Source: a virus (lineage: Duplodnaviria; Heunggongvirae; Uroviricota; Caudoviricetes). Taken from it: a DNA stretch of 64,000 bases. Below are positions 4,120 to 31,958 of the stretch, in pieces. The notes beneath the pieces are model-generated. The model had not been told where the DNA came from. It worked only from the letters and a program-made list of their open reading frames with translations, and ran no database searches. A program made the position numbers and the translations under genes. Within the stretch, counting starts at the first letter, position 1. Every line of letters starts with the position of its first letter. The DNA lies in the IMG/VR virus record IMGVR_UViG_3300047202_000060, one strand, 5' to 3'.

Positions 4120-4152
4120 CTTATAAAGTTTTCCTAAGAAACTCTATGCTCA
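4120..4152 (-). promoter_or_regulatory. class I element copy overlapping 3' end of HNH gene
   Basis: cttataaagttttcctaagaaactctatgctca; encodes NEHRVS-stop of HNH 4134..4814. Confidence 0.4.
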
Positions 4153-4814
4153 TTTAGTTCATTAATCATTTGATTAACTAATTTGAATATTTCTTCCTTC
4201 TTCTTATTGCCCAAGTTCAAAAGATAATGAGTAACATTATGACATCTACAGCATAGAGGTATAAAATCTTCTAAATGCCTCATAATGTAAGCGTAAGTGT
4301 AAGTATGAAGTTTTCCATGAATCTCATGGTAATGAATTATTCTTTTTGAATTACCACAAATCGAACAAATTTTTCCCAATTTTATTTGAACAATATTTTT
4401 CTGTTCTGAATGGTGTTCTCTTTGATATTTTTCTATTCTTTCTTTGTTTTTTCGATTATATTCTTTCTCGTATTCTTTATGTTCCAGATGCCACATTCTA
4501 CTTCTTTCCTTAGCCTTTTCTCTATGTACTTCTCGATATTGTTTAGCCCATTTATTTATTTGGTTTTTGTGTTGTTCATAATATTCTTTTTTTTGTTGTT
4601 TTACTTCTGGGAGTTGTCGGCGTTCTTTCTCACGGTTAAGAATTTTCTCACGATTTTTCTCATAATATCCTTTGCTTCTATTTCTTTCTTGTTCCAGATG
4701 TTCAAGACGATATTGTTTGGCGTATTCTTTATGTTGTTCCTTATGGGTTTGATTATATTGTTTACCATATTGTTTCATATATTGTTTTTCTTGCGTTGAA
4801 TCCTTATACGGCAT
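4134..4814 (-). CDS. HNH endonuclease family A with long K/Y/H-rich repeat N-terminus
   Basis: ICSICG...YHEIHGKLH...DFIPLCCRCHNVTH; start moved from 4844 to the Met 34 nt downstream of TTATAAA box at about 4849. Confidence 0.6.
   Translation of the reverse strand: MPYKDSTQEKQYMKQYGKQYNQTHKEQHKEYAKQYRLEHLEQERNRSKGYYEKNREKILNREKERRQLPEVKQQKKEYYEQHKNQINKWAKQYREVHREKAKERSRMWHLEHKEYEKEYNRKNKERIEKYQREHHSEQKNIVQIKLGKICSICGNSKRIIHYHEIHGKLHTYTYAYIMRHLEDFIPLCCRCHNVTHYLLNLGNKKKEEIFKLVNQMINELNEHRVS
4162..4177. repeat. 16-bp palindrome TTAATCATTTGATTAA (inside HNH 3' coding region, encodes NQMIN)
   Basis: inverted repeat copy. Confidence 0.5.
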
Positions 4815-4846
4815 TCGACTCACCACTAATATAGAACAACACACTC

Positions 4847-4870
4847 ACTTATAAACCTTTCGGTTTGGCT
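4847..4870 (-). promoter_or_regulatory. TATA/BRE-like promoter (cacTTATAAAcctttcggtttgg variant)
   Basis: same variant recurs at 11264 and 15588 upstream of HNH-B genes. Confidence 0.4.
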
Positions 4871-4902
4871 TAACAAAAAAAGAGAAAATAACTGTGGTTG
4901 GT

Positions 4903-5061
4903 TTATGGAATTTCAACTAAAGGGGCATAAACACTTTGATTATATGTATATTTTTTGCCACATTTATTGCATTTCCACTCAACCCAAGTAAAGTGCATTT
5001 TCCGTTCTAATTCATTTCCACAGTTTGGGCATTGCTTATGTTTAATAGCAAAAACTGCCAT
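4903..5061 (-). CDS. small Zn-ribbon protein (52 aa), missed by the 60-aa ORF cutoff
   Basis: MAVFAIKHKQCPNCG...CNKCGKKY; downstream of class I element at 5109. Confidence 0.35.
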   Translation of the reverse strand: MAVFAIKHKQCPNCGNELERKMHFTWVEWKCNKCGKKYTYNQSVYAPLVEIP

Positions 5062-5108
5062 TGGGTTATCCTTCTTGTTTAATTACTATAATTACTATAT
5101 CGCCGACC

Positions 5109-5141
5109 TATATAAAGTTTTGCCCAGAACTACCATGTTCA
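5109..5141 (-). promoter_or_regulatory. class I element copy
   Basis: tatataaagttttgcccagaactaccatgttca, directly after stop of 5143..5436. Confidence 0.4.
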
Positions 5142-5142
5142 T

Positions 5143-5436
5143 TTAATCGGAACCGCAAAGAACACAAGATTTTCCTAGTAACTCGATAACTTTTTGTCTA
5201 AGTTTCAGTCTTGCGTCCTTCCTTCTTTTTACTAATTCTGGGTTCTTCCTTCGCTCTCGTTCTTGTTCTCTTTTGTATTTTTGCATTTTAGGCAAATCTT
5301 TGTAATAAAGTCTATGATGATTTTTGTTTGTTAATTCTTTTCGACATTTTTCAGAACAAACCCTTTGTGTGTTCGATATTTTAGGAAAAATCCTATTACA
5401 TCTCGGACAATAACCATATCCATAATGGTTTCTCAA
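5143..5436 (-). pseudogene. truncated HNH-family paralog: Zn ribbon plus basic repeat retained, nuclease core missing
   Basis: same N-terminal architecture as 31404..31958 and 41223..41687, stops right after LLGKSCVLCGSD where the HNH core would begin. Confidence 0.4.
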
Positions 5437-6701
5437 AGTGGTTCACCACACGGTTTGATATTTTTCTCTCTAAGTTTTTGTTTTTTTTCGGCGATAATTT
5501 TTAGAATCTTATCTTTCTTTTCATTCTTCAATCTATTCTTTAGCGAAGAGAAAACTTTGTGATGAACTTCATAATCCAAATCAAGTTCTTTCAAAGCCTC
5601 AGTTGTTTTTTTGCTCGGATTTAAAAGAATATATTCCTTCATTTTCAAATAAGGGGTTTCACCTTTGCCCCCGATGTCTATTCCTTCCTCTTTAATTATT
5701 TTTTCTAAACCATAATTTTGCATTATGGCATTAAAGAATCTCGGATAATAGTTTTGTAACCATTCAAGATAACCGCTTTGTCTAGCTTGAGGACACGACC
5801 AACAGCCCGTTCGAATCTGATAAAATGTTCCACTATTCAGCTTATAGAATCCCGTTTTTTCACAATTCGTGTTAGCATAAAGTTTGTTATAGTGAAACTT
5901 CATTAACCATTGAAATTTCCAAACATCTTCAATTGTCCAATATGCAATAGGATAAGCACGAAACATTTTATGAGTTTTTGAATAGAAATAACTTCCTCTA
6001 CTGTAAATGAGAGATGACCTATACATATTTTCTTCGAGTCTTAATCCCAGAATTGCAACGTCATAATGCTTAGTAATTTGTTTCATAGGTTTCTTTTTAA
6101 GCAGATAACAACATTTCAAAGTTGCGGTAGATTTTTCTTTTGAGGCAGACGCACGACTGTAAAGAGGCAAACCATATTTTTGAACTACTGTCCTAAATGA
6201 AATACCCCTCTCAGGTGTCGCTCTGATAATTTTGACCCCTAACTCACTTTCTAATTCTTGAATCCTCTTTCGCGTTTCTGGAAATTCCACTAGAGTATCG
6301 CCCCAGATAACTTGAACCCGTTCGTCTATTATTGCGTCTTTGAAAAGTTGCACACAACATTCGCTGTCTATGCCCCCAGAATAAGCGATATAGATTTTCT
6401 TTCCTTTGTTTTCGTCAAGAATCTTTTGAACAAGAGTTTTAGAAAAACAGTATTTCTCTTCGAATGTAGAAGCAAACAGCTTTTTCCGCGCGTCAATTTT
6501 TTCGTGATATTTTTTATTGCCACAAACACAAGTCTGATAAGAATGTTGACAGTCTTTGCACACGGGGACATCTGAATATTCAAGTCCCTCTCTTTTTAAG
6601 AATCCTCTTCTTTCGGAATTATTCATTTTATGATAATTTGACTGAATCCAAAAATCCTTTTTGCCTTTCCAATTTATCCGTTCGTCTTTCCAGCTAGACA
6701 T
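5433..6701 (-). CDS. PP-loop ATP pyrophosphatase, PAPS-reductase/DndC-like family, with N-terminal Cys cluster
   Basis: SGGIDS PP-loop motif in IAYSGGIDSECCVQ; CKDCQHSYQTCVCG N-terminal; 422 aa. Confidence 0.6.
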   Translation of the reverse strand: MSSWKDERINWKGKKDFWIQSNYHKMNNSERRGFLKREGLEYSDVPVCKDCQHSYQTCVCGNKKYHEKIDARKKLFASTFEEKYCFSKTLVQKILDENKGKKIYIAYSGGIDSECCVQLFKDAIIDERVQVIWGDTLVEFPETRKRIQELESELGVKIIRATPERGISFRTVVQKYGLPLYSRASASKEKSTATLKCCYLLKKKPMKQITKHYDVAILGLRLEENMYRSSLIYSRGSYFYSKTHKMFRAYPIAYWTIEDVWKFQWLMKFHYNKLYANTNCEKTGFYKLNSGTFYQIRTGCWSCPQARQSGYLEWLQNYYPRFFNAIMQNYGLEKIIKEEGIDIGGKGETPYLKMKEYILLNPSKKTTEALKELDLDYEVHHKVFSSLKNRLKNEKKDKILKIIAEKKQKLREKNIKPCGEPL

Positions 6702-6737
6702 TTTCTAATCACCCGTTGATAAATAAGAATACAAACG

Positions 6738-6763
6738 AGTATTTAAAGGTTATGGTTTGAACC
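6738..6763 (-). promoter_or_regulatory. class II promoter element (aaccataaccTTTAAATA in gene orientation)
   Basis: gagtatttaaaggttatggtttgaacc; GGGTGAT SD 6 nt before ATG at 6701. Confidence 0.4.
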
Positions 6764-6923
6764 CCAAATATTCTAATTCTTCGGGGGAATATTGTTTTAG
6801 CCATTTTTTAAAATGACGTTTAGCGTGACAATTTTTGTCAAGTAAAATAATTTCACCATTCAAATATCTTGTTTGAATGTTTTCAAAGTTCTCAACTCCA
6901 ATAAAAAGGGGTAGTTTTGGGTT

Positions 6924-7820
6924 TTAGCTCTCTTCCTTCTGCTTTTTCAGCTTCTCGACATCTATCTCGTCCGAATCTTCGAAGAAGCTACGGAACAGGT
7001 TCCTTTCCTCTTTTGCGGTGTAAAGTGAGCTTGCAATGTCTATGATGTCCTCTTCCGACATCTTTGCTTTATAGAGTTTGCCGTAGTTTATTAGGTTTCC
7101 TGTCGTGAGGGGCGTTCGAAGTTTTCCGTTCTCGTATTCGGTTCGGGTCTTTTTGCCAATTTCAACGAACTTCGATGCAAATTCGTATGCTTTGCCATCA
7201 TTGCCAGCGAATTTCTTTATCAAATCACGCTCTTTCTGGGGGCTAAGGTAGTCAATTATCAAACCTTCGAAGCGTCTAATCGTTGCAATGTTTTCGATGA
7301 ACGTCCCAGAGTAGCCCGATTTTTCGCTAGGGTTATACGAGATGACTAGGTAGTGCTGTGCTGTGCGCTGAAATTCCTTCTTGTATTCTGGAATCCAGAC
7401 CGAACCCCTAAAGTCCGCTAGGCTTTCCAGAAGTGAAATTATCGATGGTTCCGCATAGTTGAACCCGTCTATGTAAAGTAAACCCTTCGGCGAATTGAGC
7501 CATTGAATTATTATTCCTTCTCTTGTTTCCGTGTTGCCTTTGCTCAATGTGTCACACGCCAGCAAATCCCATTTTGTCACATCTCTCGTGAGCACAATTT
7601 CGAAAAGTGGAACCTCTAACAACTCTGCCAATTTATGAACCAAAGTTGTTTTGCCCGTCCCCGTTTCGCCGACTAATCGCAAGTTTCCGACAACCTCAAG
7701 AATCGCCCGTGACTTTTCAATGTAGTTATGTTCGTCCACGAACTCTATGCCTTTGACGTAGATGCCAGCACCTTCAAGTGCTGATTCAACCTTCGCATGG
7801 ATTTTTTCAAATTCAGACAT
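6924..7820 (-). CDS. MoxR/CobS-like AAA+ ATPase
   Basis: Walker A GETGTGKTT; AAA_5-like layout; paired with the vWA gene upstream. Confidence 0.7.
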   Translation of the reverse strand: MSEFEKIHAKVESALEGAGIYVKGIEFVDEHNYIEKSRAILEVVGNLRLVGETGTGKTTLVHKLAELLEVPLFEIVLTRDVTKWDLLACDTLSKGNTETREGIIIQWLNSPKGLLYIDGFNYAEPSIISLLESLADFRGSVWIPEYKKEFQRTAQHYLVISYNPSEKSGYSGTFIENIATIRRFEGLIIDYLSPQKERDLIKKFAGNDGKAYEFASKFVEIGKKTRTEYENGKLRTPLTTGNLINYGKLYKAKMSEEDIIDIASSLYTAKEERNLFRSFFEDSDEIDVEKLKKQKEES

Positions 7821-7852
7821 TTTTATTACCTATCTGAGTATAACGTCCGCGT

Positions 7853-7890
7853 CCTTAATAAACCTTTGCACAGAAAGTACGTGTTCATTC
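7853..7890 (-). promoter_or_regulatory. class I element copy (TTAATAAA variant)
   Basis: ccttaataaacctttgcacagaaagtacgtgttcattc; box about 34 nt upstream of ATG 7820. Confidence 0.4.
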
Positions 7891-7893
7891 AAG

Positions 7894-7909
7894 TTAATCA
7901 TCTGATTAA
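7894..7909. repeat. 16-bp palindrome TTAATCATCTGATTAA
   Basis: inverted repeat copy. Confidence 0.55.
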
Positions 7910-7958: not shown

Positions 7959-8393
7959 TTAGATAGTCTTTTGTTTTACAAATTCTTGAATTTCGTTTAA
8001 TTCCATTTTACAAATCTGATGAAGAAAGTGAAAACCTTTATGGCAAATATGGCAGAGAGGAATAAAATCCTCTTTGTGGTTTGCATAATACGATAAGCTA
8101 ATCGGGTGTTTTTTCCAATGAATTTCGTGAAGCATTAACCCCTGTTTCGAATCACATGATAAACACTTATCTGGAAATAATGCTTTTACCTTTTCACGAA
8201 ATAGCTTTTTCCTTTTGGATTCTTTTTCACGATTTTTTGAATAGTATGTTTGGTTTCTAAGTTTTCCAGCTTCGTGATTTTCTACGTAGTTGTTTCTGTG
8301 TCTTGCGTTTATTTTTTCTTTGTTTCGTGCGTGATAATCTCTTTGGGCTTTCCTTTGTTTTTCTTTGTCTTTATATGGCAATTCCATCACCAC
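7959..8393 (-). CDS. HNH endonuclease family A
   Basis: CLSCDS...LHEIHWKKH...DFIPLCHICHKGFH; basic N-terminus. Confidence 0.65.
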   Translation of the reverse strand: MVMELPYKDKEKQRKAQRDYHARNKEKINARHRNNYVENHEAGKLRNQTYYSKNREKESKRKKLFREKVKALFPDKCLSCDSKQGLMLHEIHWKKHPISLSYYANHKEDFIPLCHICHKGFHFLHQICKMELNEIQEFVKQKTI

Positions 8394-8417: not shown

Positions 8418-8439
8418 TATTTAAAGGTTATGGTTTGGC
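8418..8439 (-). promoter_or_regulatory. class II promoter element
   Basis: ctatttaaaggttatggtttggc, 25 nt upstream of ATG 8393. Confidence 0.4.
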
Positions 8440-10205
8440 TATTTCTGGGTTTCCACGTTAAGGTAAACTTGAAGGAAGGCTTTTGGTAACTCAGAAATTT
8501 CCTTAATACGGGTTCGTGAAACCTTTAAGTTACGAACTTTGTTTGCAAAAGTTTCCACATTATCAGCATCACAGAATCCAATAAAGCATACTTCAATTCC
8601 ACTACGGGTGTACTGTTCGATTAAGTTCTCTGCTTTTTGCTCGTCATCACCGTTAAAACAGAAATCGCTTGCTATTACAAGAATCTTTCTGCGTTCGCCC
8701 TTTATGGAATTGAACATTTTTAAATGTGCCTCAAGCAAAACGGAAACTTCAGTTCCCCCAGCATTTACGGAAATCGCCCCGATTCTTGCTCGTGTGTTTT
8801 CGAATGTTTCGAAATGTGACTTTACTCGTTGACTATCAGCACCGAACGCGGAAATTGAGAAACCATAATCATCAACGTAATGACCGAAAACTTCGTTAAG
8901 AATTGTCGTTATTTTCTGTGCTTGGTTTCTATCAACTGAACCCGAATAATCGAATAGAAAAGCTATAGCTACTTGTTCTTTTTCGAACTTCGTGGTCGTT
9001 CGCAAATACACATTACGAACGGTTCCGCGAAAAGAGTTAGTGTAGATTCGTGGAACTATCGGTGACATCATTTTGCCCCTTTTCTGGAATATCTCCCGTG
9101 ACACTCGTGGTTTCATTCTAGTTTTCAAAAGGTTAAGTAATTCTGTAATTTCTGGTTTACACTCATCGAGTAACTTTGAGTATGCTTCAAAGTCAGGCTC
9201 AGGACTAGGTATTTCGATTCCCGTGCCTTCGCCAGCACCCGAACCTTTCTGTAAATCTTCAAGATGTTTCTTTTTGTCCTCTTCTTGTTGTTCTTCCTTC
9301 TCTGCTTGTTCCAGAAGTTGTTTCAATTTATCCGAAATTTTGCCCTTTATGTTTCCCCCTCTACGAGAAACAACGTATTCTTTTGTGGTATAGTCAGCTT
9401 TAAGGTGTTTAGCTACTAAATCATAAATTGCTTGGCATGAACGAATGATGTCCAACTTAACGCGCTGATATTTGGTTCCCTCTAGGATTTTCAGGGCTTC
9501 CTCTGTGTCCTTTCGAGTATCGGGGCTAAGTTTGTCCCACAATTCTGTGCATTTAGCTTCATATAGACCTTCATTGCACAAAATTGCAACCATGTAAACC
9601 CCTTCTTGTTGTCCAGCTTGAATTGGCATGGTTATATTTGTGTTTTCTCCCAAGCTTTCACCTTTCGGGAGAATTGAAGATGTCCGTATCTGAGGCTTTT
9701 CTATCGTGTTGTCAATCATATCCTTCAATATCAAGTTCGCCAAAAGAAGCCTTTTTCCGACATCGAACCTATATCTGAGGATAATAAAGTGATTAATGCG
9801 TTTATCTTCGACCAAATTGCAAACTTCATGAGCCAGCTTATAGTAACCACGCTGGCGTTTGATTTTCGTTGTCCAATTGTTGAAAAACTCCCAATTTGGC
9901 TTTGTAAGGATTAAATGACCGCATTCGTGAGCCATATCTCCGTCCAGAATCTTTCTGAACAATCTCGGAGAAGTTTTCACGAAATCGGGATAACTTTGCA
10001 AACTTAGAGAAATTTCAAAATTTTCCATGTTAAAAGCAGAAGTTGGTTGTTCTGGAATATACTTGACACGAATCCGTTTGTCCTTTGTTATGGCAATGGC
10101 TAAGTTTCGCATCTCATCGAGAATTTTTGAGAATGCCCCATTATCTTTCTGTGGTTTCTTCTTTTGGTAACTCATTCTCTCACGCCACAATAAGAAGCTA
10201 ACCAC
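8439..10205 (-). CDS. vWA-domain protein (CobT/NorD-like) with N-terminal HExxH motif
   Basis: MIDAS motif DYSGSVD in AIAFLFDYSGSVD; MAHECGHLIL HExxH; 588 aa; follows the AAA+ gene. Confidence 0.65.
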   Translation of the reverse strand: MVSFLLWRERMSYQKKKPQKDNGAFSKILDEMRNLAIAITKDKRIRVKYIPEQPTSAFNMENFEISLSLQSYPDFVKTSPRLFRKILDGDMAHECGHLILTKPNWEFFNNWTTKIKRQRGYYKLAHEVCNLVEDKRINHFIILRYRFDVGKRLLLANLILKDMIDNTIEKPQIRTSSILPKGESLGENTNITMPIQAGQQEGVYMVAILCNEGLYEAKCTELWDKLSPDTRKDTEEALKILEGTKYQRVKLDIIRSCQAIYDLVAKHLKADYTTKEYVVSRRGGNIKGKISDKLKQLLEQAEKEEQQEEDKKKHLEDLQKGSGAGEGTGIEIPSPEPDFEAYSKLLDECKPEITELLNLLKTRMKPRVSREIFQKRGKMMSPIVPRIYTNSFRGTVRNVYLRTTTKFEKEQVAIAFLFDYSGSVDRNQAQKITTILNEVFGHYVDDYGFSISAFGADSQRVKSHFETFENTRARIGAISVNAGGTEVSVLLEAHLKMFNSIKGERRKILVIASDFCFNGDDEQKAENLIEQYTRSGIEVCFIGFCDADNVETFANKVRNLKVSRTRIKEISELPKAFLQVYLNVETQK

Positions 10206-10245: not shown

Positions 10246-10261
10246 TTAATCAACTGATTAA
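10246..10261. repeat. 16-bp palindrome TTAATCAACTGATTAA
   Basis: inverted repeat copy. Confidence 0.6.
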
Positions 10262-10312: not shown

Positions 10313-10328
10313 TTAATCAACTGATTAA
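10313..10328. repeat. 16-bp palindrome TTAATCAACTGATTAA
   Basis: inverted repeat copy. Confidence 0.6.
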
Positions 10329-10693
10329 ATGAATTAGCCTCATATCTGGTTCCGTTTGGCAAAAGCATCCATTGTGAAAGACGTGCTGGAAAAGTCAGTA
10401 CGTTAATTCTAGGGAAAAACTTATAAGCAACCACGCCTATATATTCACAAAGCTTCACAAGAGGTTTGAAAATGTTTCCGTTTGACACAATAAGTTTCAT
10501 TTTGGCTCTCATCGTACTTGCAAAGGTCGCTAGAACTTTCCGTCACCCTATAGGTTTACCACCAAAGTCAATTAATTATGAGCCAGAAGATTAAACTAAA
10601 AATACCCCATACATACGCCCATTTTTTTTCTAAATTTTGATTTTGGACAGCATGATGTTCTCTTTCCTTTCCCCTAGCCTTTTCCCTGATTAT

Positions 10694-10709
10694 TTAATCA
10701 CTTGATTAA
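10694..10709. repeat. 16-bp palindrome TTAATCACTTGATTAA
   Basis: inverted repeat copy. Confidence 0.55.
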
Positions 10710-10803
10710 AAAAGCTTCGACTTCAGACTTCAGTCCCCATCGCATTCGCCCTAGCATCAAGAACGTTTTTTTCCCTAGCCTATTTACCTGTTAAATGGAA
10801 GTG

Positions 10804-11298: not shown

Positions 11299-11490
11299 TC
11301 AAGTAAAGAGAACAACTTCTGGAATCATACGCTCATATTCTGCAATTACAGTATCGACTTTTTTCTTCTTTGCCAAACAAGCCTTAGCCATAGGAAAGTT
11401 TTTTTGTTGTTTTTGCAGTTCGGCAGACCTAGTTAATCTGTTGCTTAATGCTCGAAGTCTATGAAGAGTCTTTCTTGAGAACTTATTCAC
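11299..11490 (-). CDS. hypothetical protein, GTG start, VVLFT tail
   Basis: junction cassette at 11487 gives GTG start; track ORF 11299..11538 trimmed. Confidence 0.45.
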   Translation of the reverse strand: MNKFSRKTLHRLRALSNRLTRSAELQKQQKNFPMAKACLAKKKKVDTVIAEYERMIPEVVLFT

Positions 11491-11789
11491 GTAAACTGCA
11501 CCTTCACTTTTATTCTGTCTATTTGACTGATTCTCCAATGAGCTTTATCCCCTTCTTTAACCCAACCCCAAAGTGTGCCCGAAATTTCAAGCCAAGCCCA
11601 TTCCTCTCCGATTTTGCGTATAGAAGCGCATTTTGGGCATATAATATAAATATATTCATTGCCATTTTTTATCCAAAGTGAATCAAGTTTCTTCTTTGCA
11701 TATTTCGACAAACCTACAAGTTGCAAATAGGAAGAATGTTTTTGTTCCGTCTTTGTTCCACAAATGGGACAAATATTAAGTTCTTTCAT
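11487..11789 (-). CDS. Zn-ribbon protein, KVKVQFT tail
   Basis: CPICG...CPKC; cassette at both ends. Confidence 0.55.
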   Translation of the reverse strand: MKELNICPICGTKTEQKHSSYLQLVGLSKYAKKKLDSLWIKNGNEYIYIICPKCASIRKIGEEWAWLEISGTLWGWVKEGDKAHWRISQIDRIKVKVQFT

Positions 11790-14670: not shown

Positions 14671-14704
14671 TATTAAAACCTTTGCCTAGAACAACCATGC
14701 TTAG
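14671..14704 (-). promoter_or_regulatory. class I element copy
   Basis: tattaaaacctttgcctagaacaaccatgcttag; contains stop of 14701..14970. Confidence 0.4.
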
Positions 14705-14970
14705 TAAGATTCCATATCGTAAAGTTGCCTAATGGGGTTGTCGTTCGGTATTGTGATTTTCGTAGTCATAGTGACGTGTAAGTGAGGGTTACACTTGTAG
14801 CTATCGACTTTCTCTTGCCAATGTTCGTTCGGGTCTGCCTTTGACTTTTTGCTCCAACTGTTCAAAATCCCCATTGCCTCATAGTAATAGCTAGATTTCA
14901 TTTGACAGTTTGAACATCTGCCGTCTGAACCAAAATGGTGTTCTCGACAAACTTTGGTTATTTCGCTCAT
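14701..14970 (-). CDS. Cys-rich hypothetical protein
   Basis: CREHHFGSDGRCSNCQ. Confidence 0.5.
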   Translation of the reverse strand: MSEITKVCREHHFGSDGRCSNCQMKSSYYYEAMGILNSWSKKSKADPNEHWQEKVDSYKCNPHLHVTMTTKITIPNDNPIRQLYDMESY

Positions 14971-15008
14971 TAGTAAATCACTTTGTTGTTAATAGAATAA
15001 CGCCGACT

Positions 15009-15043
15009 CTTATAAATCTTTAGGTAAAATCACCATGCTCGAT
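15009..15043 (-). promoter_or_regulatory. class I element copy encoding C-terminus of HNH-B gene
   Basis: cttataaatctttaggtaaaatcaccatgctcgat encodes IEHGDFT-stop. Confidence 0.4.
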
Positions 15044-15556
15044 TAACCATTCGAACGCTTTATCGTTTATCTCAGTCATTCTCTGTCCTGTATGAATATT
15101 ATGCCATATTGAACGATGTAATTCTTTAGGAATATAGACAACTAACTCGAAGTCTATATGATGCGCTTCTGAACCGACAAATAAATCATTAAGAGGATTA
15201 AATCCTAAATTTCGTTCTCTCTTTGAGTGTTGCTTTCGCCAATATCCCTTAAATTGCTCTGAGTGTTCAAGACGATATTCTCTCTTATAATTTGGGTGTT
15301 TAATACACCATTTTTTCTTACGTTCTCTCTCATATTCTGGGTGAGTTTGAGAATATTGTTTGTTGTATTCATTTATTTGTTTCTTGCGATTTAATTTGGA
15401 TTTTTTGTTAATTTCTCTTGCACGTTCTGGATTTTCTATTTGCCATCTTATCGCAGTTGCACTTAATTGAGTTTTGTGGACTTGACGATATTGTTTGTCA
15501 TGTTCTTTATTTCGCTTATGCCATTCCATCATATAGTTAGGGTCTTTACGTAGCAT
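15020..15556 (-). CDS. HNH endonuclease family B with basic repeats; start moved from 15574
   Basis: NLGFNPLNDLF..EAHHIDFELVVYIPKELHRSIWHN..AFEWLIEHGDFT; TTATAAA box at about 15590. Confidence 0.6.
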   Translation of the reverse strand: MLRKDPNYMMEWHKRNKEHDKQYRQVHKTQLSATAIRWQIENPERAREINKKSKLNRKKQINEYNKQYSQTHPEYERERKKKWCIKHPNYKREYRLEHSEQFKGYWRKQHSKRERNLGFNPLNDLFVGSEAHHIDFELVVYIPKELHRSIWHNIHTGQRMTEINDKAFEWLIEHGDFT

Positions 15557-15587
15557 TCTATTCACAAATAACAATAATGTGTTTCAG

Positions 15588-15609
15588 GCTTATAAATGTT
15601 TCGGTTAGC
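15588..15609 (-). promoter_or_regulatory. TATA/BRE-like promoter
   Basis: ggcttataaatgtttcggttagc. Confidence 0.4.
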
Positions 15610-15868
15610 AAACGTAACCTTTTAACTTCTCTTTCCTCTCAACGGGGTTTTCTACCATTTCTTCCGAAAATTCCAATTCATCCAAAGCCTGTTTTTCTGC
15701 ATTATATCGCGTACAAAAAATCGGGGTCGGGTTGTTGGCAATGAATAGAATCGCTGTTCCCTTCATTCTGTCAAGTTCTTCTTTCGGGTTCTTCTTTCTC
15801 TTCGAAGGTTCTATGTAAATTGACGACTCAATTGTTGGCATTTTACTTTCTCCAATGAATAACTCCAC
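15605..15868 (-). CDS. hypothetical protein
   Basis: 87-aa ORF. Confidence 0.4.
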   Translation of the reverse strand: MELFIGESKMPTIESSIYIEPSKRKKNPKEELDRMKGTAILFIANNPTPIFCTRYNAEKQALDELEFSEEMVENPVERKEKLKGYVC

Positions 15869-16584: not shown

Positions 16585-16600
16585 TTAAACAGTTGATTAA
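16585..16600. repeat. imperfect 16-bp palindrome TTAAACAGTTGATTAA
   Basis: one mismatch in left arm. Confidence 0.4.
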
Positions 16601-16825: not shown

Positions 16826-17122
16826 TCAAGTAAAGTTTACCTTCTCTGGGGTAACTTTGTGCTTTTCGTTAGGCAAATATTCCAGCGAAGTTATCAGTAT
16901 TTCTTTATCACAGTAATTCGCCAAATCTTGAAAGTGTTCTAGTTTGCTCTCGTCTATTTCGTCAAACGAACATGCCTCACGATTGCCGTCATCGTCTATA
17001 TAATCTGTTTCGAGAAGCATACAACAAAGTGGACAATCGGAAGAGCCAGCTACGATTCCTCTAAACTGAATCGCTAATGGGTCTTTAGATTCTTTAAGCC
17101 ATCTCAGACTTACTTTCTGCAT
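16826..17122 (-). CDS. hypothetical Cys-rich protein, EKVNFT tail
   Basis: CPLCCMLLETDY; cassette at 16840. Confidence 0.5.
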   Translation of the reverse strand: MQKVSLRWLKESKDPLAIQFRGIVAGSSDCPLCCMLLETDYIDDDGNREACSFDEIDESKLEHFQDLANYCDKEILITSLEYLPNEKHKVTPEKVNFT

Positions 17123-17194
17123 ATTGTTTTTCCCTCTCTATAATTATCTGGTATTCTTTCGCAGTTTTGAAATAGTAGTTGCTTATCTCTTCGC

Positions 17195-17428
17195 TCAAGT
17201 AAATTGCACCTTCTCAGGTACTATATCGTTTTTTAGTTCTCCTTTCCAAACAAGCCAAGTCGGATTATGTTCATTCGGATATTTTTCTTCTAATCTTTTT
17301 TGATTTTTTGCAAAAAACTTGTGCCAATAATTAACACATCTTTTGCAAAGAAAGGAATCAACGTGTCTGTCTTCTTTTTCGTTTGTCAAAAATTTTGCAC
17401 TACAATGCTCACAAGTTTTTTTTCTCAT
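17195..17428 (-). CDS. Zn-finger protein, EKVQFT tail
   Basis: CEHCSAKF...CKRCVNYWH. Confidence 0.5.
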   Translation of the reverse strand: MRKKTCEHCSAKFLTNEKEDRHVDSFLCKRCVNYWHKFFAKNQKRLEEKYPNEHNPTWLVWKGELKNDIVPEKVQFT

Positions 17429-17789
17429 TCCAACTTTTCTCCATTTCGATAATTGTCTGCCACTCTTTTGCCGTCTTGAAATAATAGCTACTTACTTCTT
17501 CGCTCAAGTAAATTGCACGACCTCTTTTCTAGGCACTTTACCCTTAATATCGCACACCGAATAGCTATCACATTTTTGACATTTACGTTCTGAATATTCT
17601 GTGCATACAATCACTTTCACAACGGTTATACCCGTTTTCAAGTTAGCTTGCATCTGCATTCTTCTCAACTGAACGACACCTTTTCTTTGTTCTCTAAGAT
17701 GTAGATTAAGGCTTGAGCAATTATTTCCTGATTAGTTTGAACATTTCCTGTCGGAATAGATTTTAGATTTCTGATTATTTGTTCTCGGT

Positions 17790-19582: not shown

Positions 19583-19616
19583 CTATATAAACGTTTGCCC
19601 AAAATACCCATGCTCA
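19583..19616 (-). promoter_or_regulatory. class I element copy abutting junction cassette
   Basis: ctatataaacgtttgcccaaaatacccatgctca. Confidence 0.4.
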
Positions 19617-19829
19617 AGTAAACTGAACCTTCTCTTTGTCTTTCATTAGAAATTTTGAAAACTCTTTTTGCCATTCACTATCAGGTTTTCCACGAAGACT
19701 TGGTATTTTCTTATGCCATATTTTTTCGCATTCTGGACAAATATGAGTTGACGATACTATTCCACTATGATAAGAGAAATGTTCATTTACTCTTTCTCCT
19801 CTTCCGCATCTTCCGCAATATTCAGTCAC
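19614..19829 (-). CDS. Zn-ribbon protein, GTG start, EKVQFT tail
   Basis: CGRCGRGE...CPEC. Confidence 0.5.
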   Translation of the reverse strand: MTEYCGRCGRGERVNEHFSYHSGIVSSTHICPECEKIWHKKIPSLRGKPDSEWQKEFSKFLMKDKEKVQFT

Positions 19830-22203: not shown

Positions 22204-22237
22204 TTATTCTCGACCTTACTGAAAGTAAGGTATCAGC

Positions 22238-22274
22238 GTTCCTTATAAAGTTTTGCCTAGAAAGAACATACTCA
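22238..22274 (-). promoter_or_regulatory. class I element copy
   Basis: cgttccttataaagttttgcctagaaagaacatactca. Confidence 0.4.
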
Positions 22275-22328
22275 TAATACGTCACGTAGCAACCCCTTGT
22301 TGATGGACGGGGGCAAAGTGATACTTAT

Positions 22329-22344
22329 TTAATCAACTGATTAA
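22329..22344. repeat. 16-bp palindrome TTAATCAACTGATTAA
   Basis: inverted repeat copy. Confidence 0.6.
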
Positions 22345-22472
22345 AATTCCTCTTTTTTGACATGTCTAATGCGATAGGCATGGACAAACTTTACAGAAAT
22401 TTAAAGGAATATGCCCTATTGTGGATAACTCTATTAAAAAAGAGAAAAGTGAGCACGACTCAAAAGACGTGC

Positions 22473-23990: not shown

Positions 23991-24006
23991 TTAATCACCA
24001 GATTAA
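23991..24006. repeat. imperfect palindrome TTAATCACCAGATTAA
   Basis: degenerate inverted repeat. Confidence 0.3.
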
Positions 24007-26510: not shown

Positions 26511-26549
26511 CCGTCCTATTTAAACCTTGTGGTAGAACGTTCATACTCA
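26511..26549 (-). promoter_or_regulatory. class I element copy (TGGTAGAAC variant)
   Basis: ccgtcctatttaaaccttgtggtagaacgttcatactcaa, box 29 nt upstream of ATG 26487. Confidence 0.4.
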
Positions 26550-26610
26550 ATTATGGTCTGCCACATTTTCGGGGTCTTGAAGTAATACTCACTTATCTCT
26601 TCCGTCATTG

Positions 26611-26626
26611 TTAATCACTTGATTAA
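26611..26626. repeat. 16-bp palindrome TTAATCACTTGATTAA
   Basis: inverted repeat copy at 3' end of KaiC-like gene. Confidence 0.55.
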
Positions 26627-28318: not shown

Positions 28319-28519
28319 TCAATCACTTTTTTCCTTTTTGTTCTTATCCTCTAATTCTTCAAGTATTCTATAAACGATATTGAAGTCTTCTTCCGTTATA
28401 ATTCTTGTTTCCTTTGCAAACTTAAAGTACACTCCTCTTGACCAACTTAAACGCTCTTTAAGTTGTTCCTTAATTTTTTCAATTTCCTCTCGTTTCATTT
28501 CAATCACTTCGGAAGCCAA
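28319..28519 (-). CDS. hypothetical charged helical protein
   Basis: 66-aa ORF. Confidence 0.35.
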   Translation of the reverse strand: MASEVIEMKREEIEKIKEQLKERLSWSRGVYFKFAKETRIITEEDFNIVYRILEELEDKNKKEKSD

Positions 28520-28875: not shown

Positions 28876-29115
28876 ACATTGTGGTTAATTCGTCTTTACC
28901 GTATCTTTGCATTGGTTGAGTAACCCAAATCTTCTCATCCCGAGTATTTATCTTTTTCTTATCTTTTTCTCTGTCCATTTCAATCACCATTCAAAATAGA
29001 TTGTAATTCCTCTTTTGAAACCTTAGCAATTTTTCTAATTGCCTCTTCCGAATAACCTATTTTTCGGAGTTTTGCAAATTCTTGTTTGTTCATCTCTATC
29101 ATTAGCTAGTTAGTA

Positions 29116-29745
29116 TTATTTGTTACTTATAAACTTTGCCCCAGAACTATCGTGCTCGATTAACCACTCGAACGCTTTATCGTTTATCTCGAACATACCA
29201 CGACCAGACCAGATATTATGACGAATTGAATTATGAAGTTTTTCGGGAATATAGACTACACACTCAAAGTCAATATGGTGTCCGTGGGAACCTTCGAATG
29301 GTTCATTAAGAAAATCGTGCCCTAGACCACGGCGTTTATACTTTTGTTTTCTAGTTTGTTTTCCTCTCCATTCTGGATGGTTTTTACGCCAATTTGTCGT
29401 CCTTTGGTCACACTCTTCTTTATGAGCGTTATAATATTGGGTTTTAGATTTTTTATCATGAAGTTTTAATTCTTCTGGGGTTAATCTTTTTAGTGGATGT
29501 GGACGATAACTCTTTTTATGATTTCTCTTATTAGATTCTCTAACCTTTTCGGGATTATTTTTTCGCCAATTTCTCAGCATAATCCTTTTTTGTTCTGGAT
29601 GATTCCTCTTCCATTTTATACTCCGTTGTTTGCATTCTTCTTTGTGAGTTTCATAATAGTGTTTTGTCCATTGCCTTTTATGTTGTTTTAGTTCTTCTTC
29701 TGTAAAGATTTTTCTAACAAATTGACCTTTAGAATTTCTACCCAT
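29116..29745 (-). CDS. HNH endonuclease family B with basic repeats
   Basis: GLGHDFLNEPF..HGHHIDFECVVYIPEKLHNSIRHN..AFEWLIEHDSSGAKFISNK; C-terminus encoded by class I element. Confidence 0.65.
   Translation of the reverse strand: MGRNSKGQFVRKIFTEEELKQHKRQWTKHYYETHKEECKQRSIKWKRNHPEQKRIMLRNWRKNNPEKVRESNKRNHKKSYRPHPLKRLTPEELKLHDKKSKTQYYNAHKEECDQRTTNWRKNHPEWRGKQTRKQKYKRRGLGHDFLNEPFEGSHGHHIDFECVVYIPEKLHNSIRHNIWSGRGMFEINDKAFEWLIEHDSSGAKFISNK
29126..29158 (-). promoter_or_regulatory. class I element copy inside HNH-B 3' end
   Basis: cttataaactttgccccagaactatcgtgctcg. Confidence 0.4.
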
Positions 29746-29775
29746 GATTTCACAACAAATAAAGAGGGAAAAGTT

Positions 29776-29795
29776 GCTTATAAAGGTTATGGTTC
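29776..29795 (-). promoter_or_regulatory. class II promoter element
   Basis: gcttataaaggttatggttcc, 32 nt upstream of 29745. Confidence 0.4.
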
Positions 29796-30120
29796 CTTCT
29801 TATCCCCAATTATTGGAATACCCCGTTTGCGAAGTTTTTGTTTCTCATTTTCTACAGCTTCAAAATCAACAATTCCAGCAAGCCATCCTTCCTCATAACC
29901 TTCCTCATACGCTGTCCATTCGCGTTCTTCTGCTGTTTCTTTGCTCATAGATGTCCATCCGAAGGTATATCTGGGTCTTTCTTTTCGACCCGTTCCACAG
30001 TTATCTTGGCTCTTAGAGCCGTTCCTTCTACCATAAGAAAGGTAGAGTGTCTTAGGTCGTCAGCATTAGCGTTCGATATTTCTATCGTTCCACTTGCCGT
30101 GACCCGATATTTTTTATACT

Positions 30121-30516
30121 TCAACCGAATATTGCTCCTAGTCCAGCACCTACGATAACGACTACTATGAAGCTAGTCACTAGACAAAGTATGATACCGA
30201 AGATTGCAGAGATCACTAACGGAACAATTGTCAAAGTCATCATGTTTGTATAGTTTGAACCCGTGAATACTATTCCCAAGAGCCAATCGTAGAACATCTT
30301 TGACCAAATCCAATAGAGATAAACGCCGACAAATGGAATAAATGAAGCAAATGCTATGAAGCCTGTGACTATTGTGAGAACAAGTCCAGCTAAGAATCCC
30401 GTGAGAGGAGCATTCGGACAGATGAGAGCACCGATTATTCCGACTACAATTGCCAGAATTATCGTTAAAACCCACGAACTTCCATAGGTTTTTGTTACGA
30501 TACTTTTTTTATCCAT
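30121..30516 (-). CDS. polytopic membrane protein
   Basis: four hydrophobic helices. Confidence 0.5.
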   Translation of the reverse strand: MDKKSIVTKTYGSSWVLTIILAIVVGIIGALICPNAPLTGFLAGLVLTIVTGFIAFASFIPFVGVYLYWIWSKMFYDWLLGIVFTGSNYTNMMTLTIVPLVISAIFGIILCLVTSFIVVVIVGAGLGAIFG

Positions 30517-30545
30517 ATTTTTTCACTATTCCTATACTATATCAG

Positions 30546-30583
30546 CGTCCTATATAAACGTTTACTAAGAAACACCATGCTCA
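30546..30583 (-). promoter_or_regulatory. class I element, near-consensus
   Basis: cgtcctatataaacgtttactaagaaacaccatgctca; provides TGA stop of 30581..30898 and box 34 nt upstream of 30516. Confidence 0.45.
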
Positions 30584-30898
30584 GGGATTCCAATACTTAT
30601 CATCAACACTATCTAATAAAGTAGAAACATAATCGTCTATTATTCTCTCGATAACATAATGAATCATTTCGTGATTAATGGTACTGACTACGTGTTTAGG
30701 TGTTGTTTTTCCGTAAATATACATACCGTTTTTAGTATCAGTAGTACCAAGAGAAGAACAATAAAAGTTATTCCATTCCCATCTTGAAACAGAAACCCTC
30801 TTTGTCCTAAATCGTTTTCTTGCAATCTCAAGCGTCACAAACCCATCGAAAATATCTACCCTTTTAGGATAATAGAAGTGAAATTCCCTTCGACCCAA
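30581..30898 (-). CDS. mini HExxH metalloprotease-like protein (paralog set of four)
   Basis: TINHEMIHYVIER. Confidence 0.45.
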   Translation of the reverse strand: MGRREFHFYYPKRVDIFDGFVTLEIARKRFRTKRVSVSRWEWNNFYCSSLGTTDTKNGMYIYGKTTPKHVVSTINHEMIHYVIERIIDDYVSTLLDSVDDKYWNP

Positions 30899-30901
30899 AG
30901 T

Positions 30902-31435
30902 TTAACTCTTCCTTATATATTTTTGCATCTCTTCTGTTGTTCCCTTTCGAATCTCACCGTTCTTTTCCATTATTGAGTACGCCCAGACATCAAGTTGCAT
31001 TAAATCAACTTTGTTTCCCAAGCACCATTCAAGAGCCGAGAAAACAATTGGTCTTTCCATACTGTCATATTCGTCAGATTCCAAAAGCCAGCGTTTGCCT
31101 TTAGGATATTCATAGGCATACTTCTCATCCCAGATATTGCGAATAACAACTTTCCATCTTTTAGGAAGAGGAATATCTTTCGGCAAGTAAGCAAACTTTG
31201 TTCCTTCCATCCCGATAAACATCGTTCGGTTAATCGGATTCCAATAGCATCGAGTAATATCTCCCTTTCTGTTACGTCCTTCATGAGTATATTTCTCCCA
31301 GAGTCTAGCTTCAAACAAGCGTACCTCAATCACATCTTCTTTTGTCACCGACTTAAAAGCTTTTATTGCATCCTCTTTAGAGAGACTTGAGGGAACGAGA
31401 ACGTTATGAATATTCAGAGTAACCATACTTATCAT
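30902..31435 (-). CDS. hypothetical protein
   Basis: 177 aa; ATG 28 nt downstream of TTTATAA box lying inside upstream HNH ORF; antisense ORF 31000..31329 judged spurious. Confidence 0.5.
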   Translation of the reverse strand: MISMVTLNIHNVLVPSSLSKEDAIKAFKSVTKEDVIEVRLFEARLWEKYTHEGRNRKGDITRCYWNPINRTMFIGMEGTKFAYLPKDIPLPKRWKVVIRNIWDEKYAYEYPKGKRWLLESDEYDSMERPIVFSALEWCLGNKVDLMQLDVWAYSIMEKNGEIRKGTTEEMQKYIRKS

Positions 31436-31958
31436 CTTTGTAAGAAGAATAGTTATCGTCCCTTATAAACGTTGTCCCAGAACCATCGTGTTCGTTTTCT
31501 GGGTGATGAAGTTCTCTATGACATCTGCAACAGAGAAGTTGTATTTTACCATCTAAAACCAATTTAAGAAAAACTTTTGTCATATATAAATTACAATCAT
31601 CATGTTTTTCCTTAGTTTTTGGGTCAAGATGGTGAAATTCGAATACTGCCAAACAACCAATATATCCACATTTTTGACATTTGCCACCGAGTAATTTTAT
31701 CAACTCTTTTTTTCGTTTGTGTTTTCTCCCGATAACATATTCTCTAACCCATTTTTTGTTTCTTTTCTGCCAACATCTTTGTGATTCACGAACTTTCTCC
31801 AAATTGTTTAAACGATATTTTCTTCTATTTTGTGCAACTTTTTCTTTATTATTTTCATTCCACTTCTTTGACCTACAATTTTTAGAACAATATTGTTGTA
31901 TTCTATGATAATATGGATTCTGAATAAATTCTGTGCCACACACTTTACATTTTGGCAT
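31404..31958 (-). CDS. HNH endonuclease family A with N-terminal Zn ribbon and basic repeats
   Basis: MPKCKVCG...CSKNC; LLGGKCQKCGY...FHHLDP...LLCCRCHRELH; NEHDGSGTTFIRDD encoded by class I element. Confidence 0.6.
   Translation of the reverse strand: MPKCKVCGTEFIQNPYYHRIQQYCSKNCRSKKWNENNKEKVAQNRRKYRLNNLEKVRESQRCWQKRNKKWVREYVIGRKHKRKKELIKLLGGKCQKCGYIGCLAVFEFHHLDPKTKEKHDDCNLYMTKVFLKLVLDGKIQLLCCRCHRELHHPENEHDGSGTTFIRDDNYSSYKDDKYGYSEYS
31457..31494 (-). promoter_or_regulatory. class I element copy embedded in-frame in HNH ORF
   Basis: cgtcccttataaacgttgtcccagaaccatcgtgttcg. Confidence 0.4.

What the first reader, a model, noticed from the sequence alone, without database searches (positions are those of the whole stretch)
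4120..31494. The class I element is also the in-frame 3' end of several HNH genes, giving a possible homing-site relationship
In HNH genes 29116..29745 (LIEHDSSGAKFISNK), 31404..31958 (NEHDGSGTTFIRDD), 15020..15556 (IEHGDFT) and 4134..4814 (NEHRVS), the class I element lies inside the ORF. It encodes the C-terminal residues. Other HNH genes (138..473, 5143..5436, 7959..8393, 47979..48272, 32917..33240) end within 0-70 nt of a copy. Stand-alone copies encode only relic mini-ORFs (MGVLGKRL, TVFRGKDL). Two readings are possible. In the first, free-standing HNH homing endonuclease genes target this conserved promoter element and insert beside it. Stand-alone copies are then empty sites. In the second, HNH cassettes carry the promoter that restores transcription of downstream genes.
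Basis: inference. Interest (0 to 1): 0.8.

Follow-up and report, generated by a model that had tools for sequence, protein, structure and literature searches.

The report
Selfish nuclease genes docked onto phage promoters
In this uncultivated phage genome, selfish HNH-type nuclease genes with their own promoter sit at the upstream edge of a conserved 38-base promoter-like element and often read into it; this resembles what is known from phage T4, and nothing shows that the nucleases cut the element.

Summary
The core observation holds. Four ORFs (4134-4844, 15020-15574, 29116-29745, 31404-31958, minus strand) read into copies of a 38-nt element, TGAGCATGnnnnTTCTnGGCAAAnnTTTATA(W)AGGACG, all in the frame GAG-CAT.

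Several details are wrong:
- Non-HNH genes overlap the element too.
- Two of the cited HNH genes are on the other strand.
- Two of the four ORFs (family B) cannot be confirmed as HNH.

The element has 23 same-strand copies, each 9-116 nt (mostly 29-46) upstream of a start codon where one follows, and is conserved in related metagenomic phages. It is promoter-like but not sigma-70-like.

HNH occupancy is polymorphic. Relatives keep the element at sites with no HNH, and different HNH families occupy the same site in different genomes. Most HNH genes have their own 'class II' promoter.

For family B, the junction EWL|IEH (TGGYTAATYGAGCATGG) recurs at five or more different resident sites and in at least 10 of 22 homologues. 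The promoter's 5' box is therefore effectively part of that cassette.

Best reading: these are promoter-bracketed selfish cassettes parked at transcription-unit boundaries, relocated by recombination at the promoter repeats, much like T4 segG/gene 32 and PeSL shuffling. A true homing-site role for the element is unproven and awkward, because the genome keeps 23 intact copies.

The parts
4134..4844 (-). Family A HNH gene (CxxC...HEIHGK...CxxCH). Its 3' end reads through the palindrome at 4162-4177 and then 19 nt into class I copy 4127.
   Evidence: (phrog_5200 HNH)
4114..4152 (-). Class I element (TTTA at 4127). It is the resident promoter-like element of the 230-aa gene 3394-4086. It is homologous to copies in L010, L011, L012 and L014, where the upstream occupant is a family B gene or nothing.
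4846..4863 (-). Class II element (AACCGAAAGGTTTATAAG), the HNH gene's own promoter-like element.
15020..15574 (-). Family B putative nuclease (HNH-like motif, not confirmed). The conserved domain ends at ...EINDKAFEWL; the residues IEHGDFT* are encoded by the class I element.
15003..15041 (-). Class I element (TTTA at 15016), 46 nt upstream of gene 14701-14970. In L012, the orthologue of the upstream gene 15605-15868 ends directly on the TGA of a class I copy, with no HNH between them.
15587..15604 (-). Class II element. Its TAA is the stop codon of the upstream gene 15605-15868.
29116..29745 (-). Family B putative nuclease. The whole class I element lies inside the ORF (IEHDSSGAKFISNK*). In the AlphaFold2 model the last helix ends at IE and the tail beyond it has low confidence.
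29120..29158 (-). Class I element (TTTA at 29133), 31 nt upstream of the start codon at 29102.
29775..29792 (-). Class II element upstream of 29116-29745.
31404..31958 (-). Family C HNH gene. The conserved domain ends near residue 152 (CHRELHH). The last ~30 residues are encoded by the class I element, its leader, and the first 32 nt of the next gene.
31456..31494 (-). Class I element (TTTA at 31469), 34 nt upstream of gene 30902-31435.
31980..31997 (-). Class II-type element (AACATAAGACTTATATAG) upstream of 31404-31958.
5143..5436 (-). Truncated HNH gene that stops at the first CxxC of the nuclease domain. Class I copy 5116 (5103-5141) starts 1 nt after its stop codon.
7959..8393 (-). Family A HNH gene between the VWA and AAA_5 genes. 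It is followed by the palindrome at 7894-7909 and class I copy 7862 (7849-7887). The HNH is absent at this site in L010, L012 and L014, which keep both the palindrome and the element.
47979..48272 (-). Family C HNH gene. A marginal class I-like remnant follows its stop codon, then the palindrome at 47899-47914 and the intact class I copy 47852 (47839-47877).
   Evidence: p about 0.04
138..473 (+). Family C HNH gene in inverted orientation with its own plus-strand class II element. Its stop codon lies about 8 nt beyond the downstream end of minus-strand class I copy 495 (482-520).
4162..4177 (.). One of 17 copies of the palindrome TTAATCAnnTGATTAA, a likely operator. This copy is translated as part of HNH 4134 (LVNQMIN).
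   Evidence: 17 found, 0.08 expected

Best explanation
Class I is the promoter of the phage's resident transcription units. It is probably an early or middle promoter, often paired with the operator-like palindrome TTAATCAnnTGATTAA, and is read by a polymerase or sigma factor other than a standard sigma-70.

The HNH and HNH-like genes are selfish cassettes. Each has its own class II promoter and a shared leader. They sit in the one place where insertion harms nothing: between the stop codon of the preceding unit and the 5' edge of the next class I promoter. No spacer remains, so each ORF runs into the promoter until it meets a stop codon in whichever frame it happens to be. The encoded tails are incidental.

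The promoter cannot be lost because it drives the downstream genes, and this also protects the 3' end of the cassette from deletion.

The roughly 40-bp promoter repeats are dispersed through the genome and mark the boundaries between modules. Recombination within them most likely moves cassettes, or swaps the downstream genes. That would explain why family B shows the same in-frame junction at many different loci.

Shown here: the anatomy, conservation of the element, polymorphic occupancy, and the recurrent family B junction. Inferred: promoter function, timing of expression, and the recombination route.
For: Promoter-like anatomy:
- There are 23 same-strand copies; 19 of the 22 with a called downstream gene lie 29-55 nt upstream of its start codon.
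- The element is conserved in relatives whose VWA protein is 76-86% identical, and in further relatives recovered through family B homologues.

Occupancy varies between genomes:
- VWA to AAA_5 site: family A HNH in the window and in L015, family B in L136, and empty in L010, L012 and L014 with palindrome and element kept.
- Site upstream of the 230-aa gene: family A in the window, family B in L010 and L011, and empty in L012 and L014. The palindrome, the element and the gene are homologous in all of them.
- In L012 the orthologue of gene 15605-15868 ends on the TGA of a class I copy. In the window, the class II element and gene 15020 sit exactly at that point.

Module boundaries: three of the four main BLAST blocks between the window and L010 start within 20 nt upstream of a palindrome plus class I pair and run to near the ends of genes.

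Own promoter: a class II element precedes 9 of 14 minus-strand HNH-like genes and both plus-strand ones, but only 6 other genes.

Family B junction:
- The conserved domain ends at EWL.
- At least 10 of 22 homologues continue with [ITV]EH, which is class I read in frame.
- The junction is seen upstream of five different resident genes.

Tails are incidental:
- All three frames occur. Frame a is used by the four window genes. The TGA stop is used in L015. Frame c is used in L012 (...LSMVKPNETL*).
- Matches of homologues to 31404 stop at about residues 148-169, almost all at 150-160.

Precedent: in T4, promoters of downstream genes are embedded in segG, segA, segE, mobB and mobC, and endonuclease-specific promoters are middle or late but never early (PMC2988022). 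[quoted passage not shown]
Against: - No transcription data exist, and the element does not match sigma-70 geometry. Sigma-70-like sites are not enriched (57 found, 54 expected).
- No recombinant junction has been caught in the act.
- Only one clear tandem arrangement was found: a mutated element copy followed by the intact resident copy in L015. The other suspected remnants (2868, L136 13517) are not significant, and 47979 is marginal at p about 0.04.
- The exactness of the family B junction would also fit site-specific insertion.
- Seven of 14 same-strand HNH-like genes in the window are not next to a class I copy.
Confidence: 0.55

Rival explanations
1. True homing site. At least one nuclease family, most plausibly family B, recognises the 5' box of class I, possibly together with the adjacent palindrome, and cuts or nicks there. 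Repair from an occupied donor then copies the cassette in. The dispersed promoter would act as a multi-copy landing pad.
For: - Family B shows the same nucleotide-level junction (TGGYTAATYGAGCATGG) at five or more different resident class I sites in different genomes.
- HNH-like genes of three families, in either orientation, abut the 5' edge of class I: 13 of 23 same-strand genes in the window plus relatives, and the inverted genes at L136 5491-6081 and L137 5712-6287.
- Different families occupy the same site in different genomes.
- Occupancy is polymorphic.
Against: - The window keeps 23 intact copies, about 12 of them with a palindrome, alongside about 16 nuclease genes. An enzyme that cut the consensus would cut its own genome unless the DNA is modified or the enzyme only nicks.
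- The element stays intact next to the inserted gene, so insertion does not destroy the supposed site.
- Three unrelated catalytic and DNA-binding architectures would all need the same specificity.
- Family B paralogues within one genome are only 35-45% identical, so there is no sign of recent spread between sites.
- Known free-standing phage endonucleases cut inside a neighbouring gene, often hundreds of bases from their own gene (PMC2988022).
- The enrichment is not significant once only unit-end positions are compared.
Confidence: 0.2
2. Pure compaction. There is no specific relation between the HNH genes and the element. Any gene that ends a transcription unit abuts the next promoter in this tightly packed genome, and HNH genes are simply over-represented at unit ends.
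For: - Non-HNH genes overlap the element just as often. Five use its TGA (or the TAA at that position) as their stop codon, gene 1316-1564 reads it in another frame, and the small ORF at 26524 reads it in the HNH frame.
- There is no enrichment relative to genes that end at a gap (p = 0.26).
- All three reading frames are used.
Against: It does not explain why at least 10 of 22 family B homologues, from many contigs and upstream of different genes, share the identical EWL|IEH fusion. It also does not explain the mutated element copy attached to the HNH in L015, upstream of the intact resident copy.
Confidence: 0.17
3. Class I is not a promoter. It could instead be an RNA-level signal, such as a processing site or leader, or a recombination site that delimits gene cassettes.
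For: - It does not match sigma-70 geometry.
- It coincides with module boundaries.
- Its first three bases often serve as a stop codon.
Against: - All 23 copies share the genes' orientation.
- The distance to the start codon is fixed (mostly 29-46 nt).
- It contains an A+T-rich -10-like core, TTTAWAWAG, which it shares with class II.
- An operator-like palindrome lies next to it.
- No Rfam family matches.
Confidence: 0.08

Closest known systems
Promoters of downstream genes embedded in free-standing homing endonuclease genes of phage T4 (segG/gene 32; also segA, segE, mobB, mobC), reviewed in PMC2988022
   Same: Free-standing HNH genes lie between conserved genes, and the promoter for the next gene lies inside or at the 3' end of the endonuclease ORF, which favours retention of the gene. 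The endonuclease has its own promoter of a different class from the flanking genes. Orientation is mostly co-directional, with rare inverted cases.
   Different: - Here one 38-nt conserved element is involved at many sites, rather than assorted sigma-70, MotA-dependent or late promoters.
- One nuclease-like family carries a conserved in-frame fusion to that element at many loci.
- Density is higher: about 16 HNH-like genes in 64 kb.
- The promoter type and the host are unknown.
- Nothing here has been tested experimentally.
[quoted passage not shown]
   Same: Short, conserved, dispersed promoter-containing repeats flank small non-essential genes and coincide with the boundaries of insertions, deletions and replacements between related phages.
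   Different: - Class I is not sigma-70-like.
- The associated palindrome has A+T-rich 7-bp arms with a 2-nt spacer, so it looks like an operator rather than a terminator.
- No mini-circles or recombinant junctions have been shown.
- The cargo here is mainly nuclease genes with a second promoter class.
Morons (a gene with its own promoter inserted between two phage genes; from my own knowledge of Hendrix and colleagues' work)
   Same: An autonomous expression cassette inserted at a gene boundary without disturbing the neighbouring genes.
   Different: Morons typically carry their own terminator and encode host-fitness factors. These cassettes end in a promoter for the next gene and encode selfish nucleases.
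Mobile elements that use dispersed regulatory repeats as landing sites, such as class C group II introns inserting after terminators and IS elements targeting REP sequences (from my own knowledge)
   Same: This would be the analogue if the homing-site rival is correct: a multi-copy regulatory motif acting as the insertion target.
   Different: No targeting has been shown here, and the mobility mechanism would differ (double-strand break repair versus retrohoming or transposition).

Membership tests
Free-standing HNH homing endonuclease gene | HNH (His-Me finger) catalytic domain | tested here: inconclusive
   [not shown]
Free-standing HNH homing endonuclease gene | Located between genes that are conserved in related genomes | tested here: met
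   Examples: between VWA and AAA_5, upstream of the 230-aa gene, and downstream of gene 15605-15868.
Free-standing HNH homing endonuclease gene | Presence/absence polymorphism among related genomes | tested here: met
   L010, L012 and L014 lack the HNH between VWA and AAA_5. L012 and L014 lack one upstream of the 230-aa gene. L012 and L015 lack 15020. Density is 16 in 64 kb in the window, against 2 in 21.7 kb in L010 and 1 in about 29 kb in L012 plus L135.
Free-standing HNH homing endonuclease gene | Site-specific cleavage of the allele that lacks the gene, and super-Mendelian inheritance with co-conversion of flanks | not testable with these tools
   This needs purified enzyme and phage crosses. 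The 38-nt near-identical patch shared by 15020 and 29116 could be a conversion tract, but it also encodes the family's most conserved peptide.
Bacterial or phage promoter (class I element) | Conserved motif at a fixed short distance upstream of start codons, in the genes' orientation | tested here: met
   23 of 23 strong copies are on the coding strand. Of the 22 with a called downstream gene, 19 lie 29-55 nt from the start codon. The element is conserved in relatives.
Bacterial or phage promoter (class I element) | Match to the sigma-70 -35/-10 hexamers with 16-18 nt spacing | tested here: not met
   No class I copy is called by the sigma-70 scan, and such sites are not enriched (57 found, 54 expected). 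The -10-like core TAWWWA lacks the final T, and the 5' box lies about 21-22 nt upstream of it.
Bacterial or phage promoter (class I element) | Mapped transcription start | not testable with these tools
   No RNA data are available.
PeSL-type mobile regulatory cassette | Strong sigma-70-like early promoter joined to a terminator stem-loop | tested here: not met
   The element is not sigma-70-like. Terminator-like sites are not enriched (15 found, 13 expected). The palindrome has A+T-rich 7-bp arms separated by 2 nt.
PeSL-type mobile regulatory cassette | Insertion, deletion and replacement boundaries between related phages coincide with the repeats | tested here: met
   Three of the four main homology blocks between the window and L010 begin 4-17 nt upstream of a palindrome plus class I pair, and the variable inserts lie just upstream of these. 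The genes downstream of the orthologue of 15605-15868 differ in the window, L012 and L015, and the break is at a class I copy.

The most novel reading that the evidence does not exclude
Family B proteins, whose nuclease fold is unrecognised and which carry variable 23-residue N-terminal helical repeats, may specifically recognise the phage's own dispersed promoter/operator module and insert their cassette at its 5' edge. That would be a promoter-targeted, multi-site homing system in which a regulatory repeat serves both as landing pad and as the portable right-hand end of the element.
Probability: 0.2. Interest if true: 0.75.

Novelty: new variant of a known kind. Interest (0 to 1): 0.5.

Why it matters
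If the best reading holds, this uncultivated clade of phages with genomes of about 140 kb gives an unusually clean, sequence-defined example of how selfish nuclease genes fit into a viral transcription programme. Each has its own promoter at the front and the host unit's promoter at the back. The dispersed promoter repeats double as the seams along which modules are exchanged.

It also yields two candidate promoter classes and an operator for a phage group with no cultured member. These can be tested directly.

If the rival holds, it would be the first case of free-standing homing endonucleases that use a multi-copy promoter as their target. That would change how the spread of such genes within genomes is understood.

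Tried and rejected
- Megablast of 8 kb against INPHARED phages found nothing. tblastn with the VWA protein found nothing, and with the AAA_5 protein only 24-28% identity hits. There is no characterised relative.
- The one IMG/VR relative (L003, 69% identity for the AAA_5 protein) is too distant and lacks the element.
- Scanning IMG/VR with element patterns gave either two chance hits or more than 120 single chance hits, so I did not use this approach on the metagenome collection.
- A metagenome scan with the 177-aa protein encoded at 30902-31435 found nothing.
- Exact-protein look-ups for genes flanking the HNH genes returned only near-identical strains with the same occupancy (L007 is 99.98% identical).
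- The locus of P0060 had no DNA on file.
- L140, the closest relative by the KaiC-like protein (61% identity), has neither an HNH nor an element at the position matching 29116. It is too divergent to decide whether the element there was carried in.
- Sequence profile and fold searches did not show that family B is an HNH.
- The ungapped PWM did not detect suspected decayed element copies. In a gapped alignment against a null distribution, only L015 and L012 were significant, 47979 was marginal, and 2868 and L136 13517 were not significant.
- I considered and dropped the idea that the element's 5' box derives from the family A C-terminal coding sequence (ELNE, LLSMV). The similarities are too short.
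- Rfam (no matches) and ARAGORN (no tRNA genes) found nothing.

Full report
**What the window is.** The 64-kb window is a gene-dense, low-G+C (about 36%) stretch with almost every gene on the minus strand. It has no tRNA genes and no Rfam match. It has no near or protein-level relative among deposited phages. Its proteins recur in metagenomic contigs: an exact copy of the VWA protein lies on a JGI contig of 140,745 bp, and homologues of 42-86% identity lie on contigs of up to 148 kb. It is therefore part of an uncultivated phage clade with genomes of about 140 kb.

**The element.** On the minus strand I found a motif with consensus TGAGCATGnnnnTTCTnGGCAAAnnTTTATA(W)AGGACG.
- A PWM gives 23 minus-strand copies at 35-56 bits. 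The best score in shuffles was 10 bits, and there is one weak plus-strand match. Only 0.02% of window positions score above 0.
- Copies lie 9-116 nt upstream of the next called start codon, and 19 of 22 lie 29-55 nt upstream.
- The element is conserved in relatives whose VWA protein is 76-86% identical and in further relatives recovered through family B homologues.
- It is not a sigma-70 promoter. The scan calls no class I copy as such, and sigma-70-like sites are not enriched (57 found, 54 expected).
- About half the copies have the palindrome TTAATCAnnTGATTAA nearby (17 copies, 0.08 expected). It looks like an operator.
- I read the element as a promoter for a non-standard polymerase or sigma factor. 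That is an inference from anatomy, not something shown.

**A second promoter class.** A shorter motif, AACC(A/G)TAA(C/G)nTTTAWATA, shares the TTTAWAWA core with class I. It precedes 9 of 14 minus-strand HNH-like genes and both plus-strand ones, but only 6 other genes. In many cases it is followed by a shared leader (TATTATATAA...GGTG). No HNH gene has a class I copy as its own promoter.

**The nuclease genes.** phmmer among all ORFs finds about 16 HNH-like genes.
- Family A: 4134, 7959, 2868, 41223, 24583 and 32917(+). It has the classic CxxC...HEIHGK...CxxCH layout.
- Family C: 31404, 138(+) and 47979.
- Families A and C match PHROG HNH families.
- Family B: 15020, 29116, 10804 and 52175. Its conserved C-terminal domain is RRGLGFxPLNEPFxGSxxHHIDFECVVYIPxELHxSIxHN.WTG..M.EINDKAFEWL. 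This domain has no Pfam, PHROG or PDB-sequence match.

**The observation itself.** The four named ORFs do read into a class I copy, all in the frame GAG-CAY. The overlap is not special to HNH genes.
- Five non-HNH genes use the element's first three bases as their stop codon.
- Gene 1316-1564 reads a copy in another frame.
- A small ORF reads copy 26524 in the HNH frame.
- HNH-like genes are enriched immediately upstream of copies when compared with all genes (7 of 14 against 16 of 123, p = 0.0024). They are not enriched when compared with genes that end at an intergenic gap (5 of 9 against 16 of 49, p = 0.26).

**The encoded tails are incidental.**
- The family B domain ends at EWL, and the sequences diverge after it.
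- Matches of 31404 to its 150 best homologues end at about residues 148-169 of 184, almost all at 150-160. The class I-encoded tail has no counterpart.
- Across the clade, HNH ORFs meet the element in all three frames: frame a in the window; the TGA stop in L015; and frame c in L012, which ends on the TAA of TTTATAA.
- In the model, the residues beyond IEH have low confidence.

Occupancy varies.
- Between VWA and AAA_5, the window and L015 have a family A HNH and L136 has a family B gene. L010, L012 and L014 have none but keep the palindrome and the element.
- Upstream of the 230-aa gene, the window has family A (its ORF runs through the palindrome into the element). L010 and L011 have family B (stop codon inside the palindrome). 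L012 and L014 have nothing. The palindrome, element and gene are homologous throughout.
- In L012, the orthologue of gene 15605-15868 ends on the TGA of a class I copy. In the window, the class II element and gene 15020 are placed exactly between that stop position and GAGCATGG.
- Three of the four main homology blocks between the window and L010 begin a few bases upstream of a palindrome plus class I pair, and the variable inserts lie just upstream of these.
- The element is therefore a resident feature that exists without HNH genes, and the HNH genes are mobile.

**What goes beyond simple packing.** Of the 22 family B homologues retrieved from many contigs (about 40% identity to each other), at least 10 continue after EWL with [ITV]EH, which is the element's 5' box read in frame. 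Some read through the whole element and a downstream palindrome (IEHGDAKETFIKNADSVINQVIKK).
- The junction TGGYTAATYGAGCATGG occurs upstream of five different resident genes: VWA in L136, the 393-aa gene of the Band_7 unit in L137, the 228-aa gene in L010, and two sites in the window.
- In L015, the family A HNH ends on the TGA of a near-complete element copy whose -10 region is mutated. The intact resident copy lies about 220-240 nt downstream.
- So, at least for family B, the 5' part of the promoter behaves as the right-hand end of the cassette.

**Mechanism.** I favour promoter-bracketed selfish cassettes.
- Each has its own class II promoter in front and the next unit's class I promoter at the back.
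- The back promoter is retained because it drives the downstream genes.
- Recombination within the dispersed promoter repeats relocates cassettes or swaps the downstream modules.
- This matches T4, where promoters of downstream genes are embedded in segG, segA, segE, mobB and mobC, and endonuclease-specific promoters are middle or late (PMC2988022). It also matches PeSL-mediated shuffling (PMC2839356).

**The homing-site reading.** It stays possible, mainly because of the exact family B junction. The arguments against it are:
- 23 intact copies persist in the same genome.
- The site is not destroyed by insertion.
- Three unrelated protein families show the same placement.
- Paralogues within one genome are strongly diverged.
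- Free-standing phage endonucleases normally cut inside a neighbouring gene.

**Verdict.** This is a new variant of a known kind, of moderate interest. Its most interesting open point is whether family B is a promoter-targeting nuclease.

Noticed in passing
window 522-537, 1282-1297, 4100-4115, 4162-4177, 7894-7909, 10246-10261, 10313-10328, 10694-10709, 16585-16600, 22329-22344, 23991-24006, 26611-26626, 32798-32813, 33370-33385, 38182-38197, 47899-47914, 56717-56732: The palindrome TTAATCAnnTGATTAA occurs 17 times (0.08 expected). Most copies lie 2-100 nt upstream of a class I copy, and some lie just downstream. It is conserved at the same sites in relatives. It is probably an operator for a dimeric regulator of the class I units.
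   Followed up: partly
window, e.g. 19614-19640, 17428-17503, 17122-17194, 36236-36906, 45341-45360, 823-926, 11487-11510: A repeated motif, GAGAAGGTGCAATTTAC, is followed by TTGA or ATG at a dozen or more junctions between small genes, giving the protein tail EKVQFT*. It looks like a conserved Shine-Dalgarno, spacer and start module for translational coupling, shared by many otherwise unrelated small ORFs. It is also present in relatives (L012, L015, L137).
   Followed up: no
[not shown]
   Followed up: partly
homologues of window 8439-10205 (P0005, P0012, P0016, P0019, P0020, P0051; loci L012-L014, L136): The VWA (CobT-like) protein of several relatives is about 900 aa. P0005, P0020 and P0051 carry intein-splicing and LAGLIDADG domains; the other long copies have no intein domain on record. 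The window's copy (588 aa) has none. This is a second class of selfish nuclease element in the clade.
   Followed up: no
window 138-473 (+) and class I copy 482-520 (-): An HNH gene is inserted in inverted orientation about 8 nt beyond the downstream end of a class I copy. Transcription from that copy would be antisense to the HNH gene, and no obvious minus-strand gene follows within the window.
   Followed up: no
window 26549-26622, 17428-17503, 17122-17194: A small ORF family, M[TS]EE[IV]S.YYFKT.KEWQ.IIE, lies in what look like intergenic gaps. The copy upstream of 26524 reads into class I in the same frame as the HNH genes (IIEYERSTTRFK*).
   Followed up: no
window 5143-5436: A truncated HNH gene has a Zn-ribbon and repeats, and stops at the first CxxC of the nuclease domain. 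It overlaps the PAPS-reductase-like gene's stop by 4 nt, and a class I copy starts 1 nt after its own stop. It looks like a decaying cassette whose 3' half was deleted up to the promoter.
   Followed up: partly
window 33118-33690, 1083-1315, 10513-10803, 22204-22472: These are unusually long stretches (230-570 nt) with no called ORF and higher G+C, lying upstream of palindrome plus class I modules. No Rfam match was found. Their function is unknown.
   Followed up: no
window 15036-15073 and 29153-29190: A 38-nt block at the 3' ends of the two family B paralogues is identical apart from one base, while the rest of the genes are about 55-70% identical. It encodes the family's most conserved peptide (EINDKAFEWLIEH). 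It could also be a gene-conversion tract ending at the class I boundary.
   Followed up: partly
window 52951-53481 and 52175-52954: An ORF ending ...HNCNLAKGFYGVCPH (HNH-like motif, no PHROG hit) overlaps by 4 nt the start of a family B gene. The two nuclease-like genes are in tandem under one class II element.
   Followed up: no
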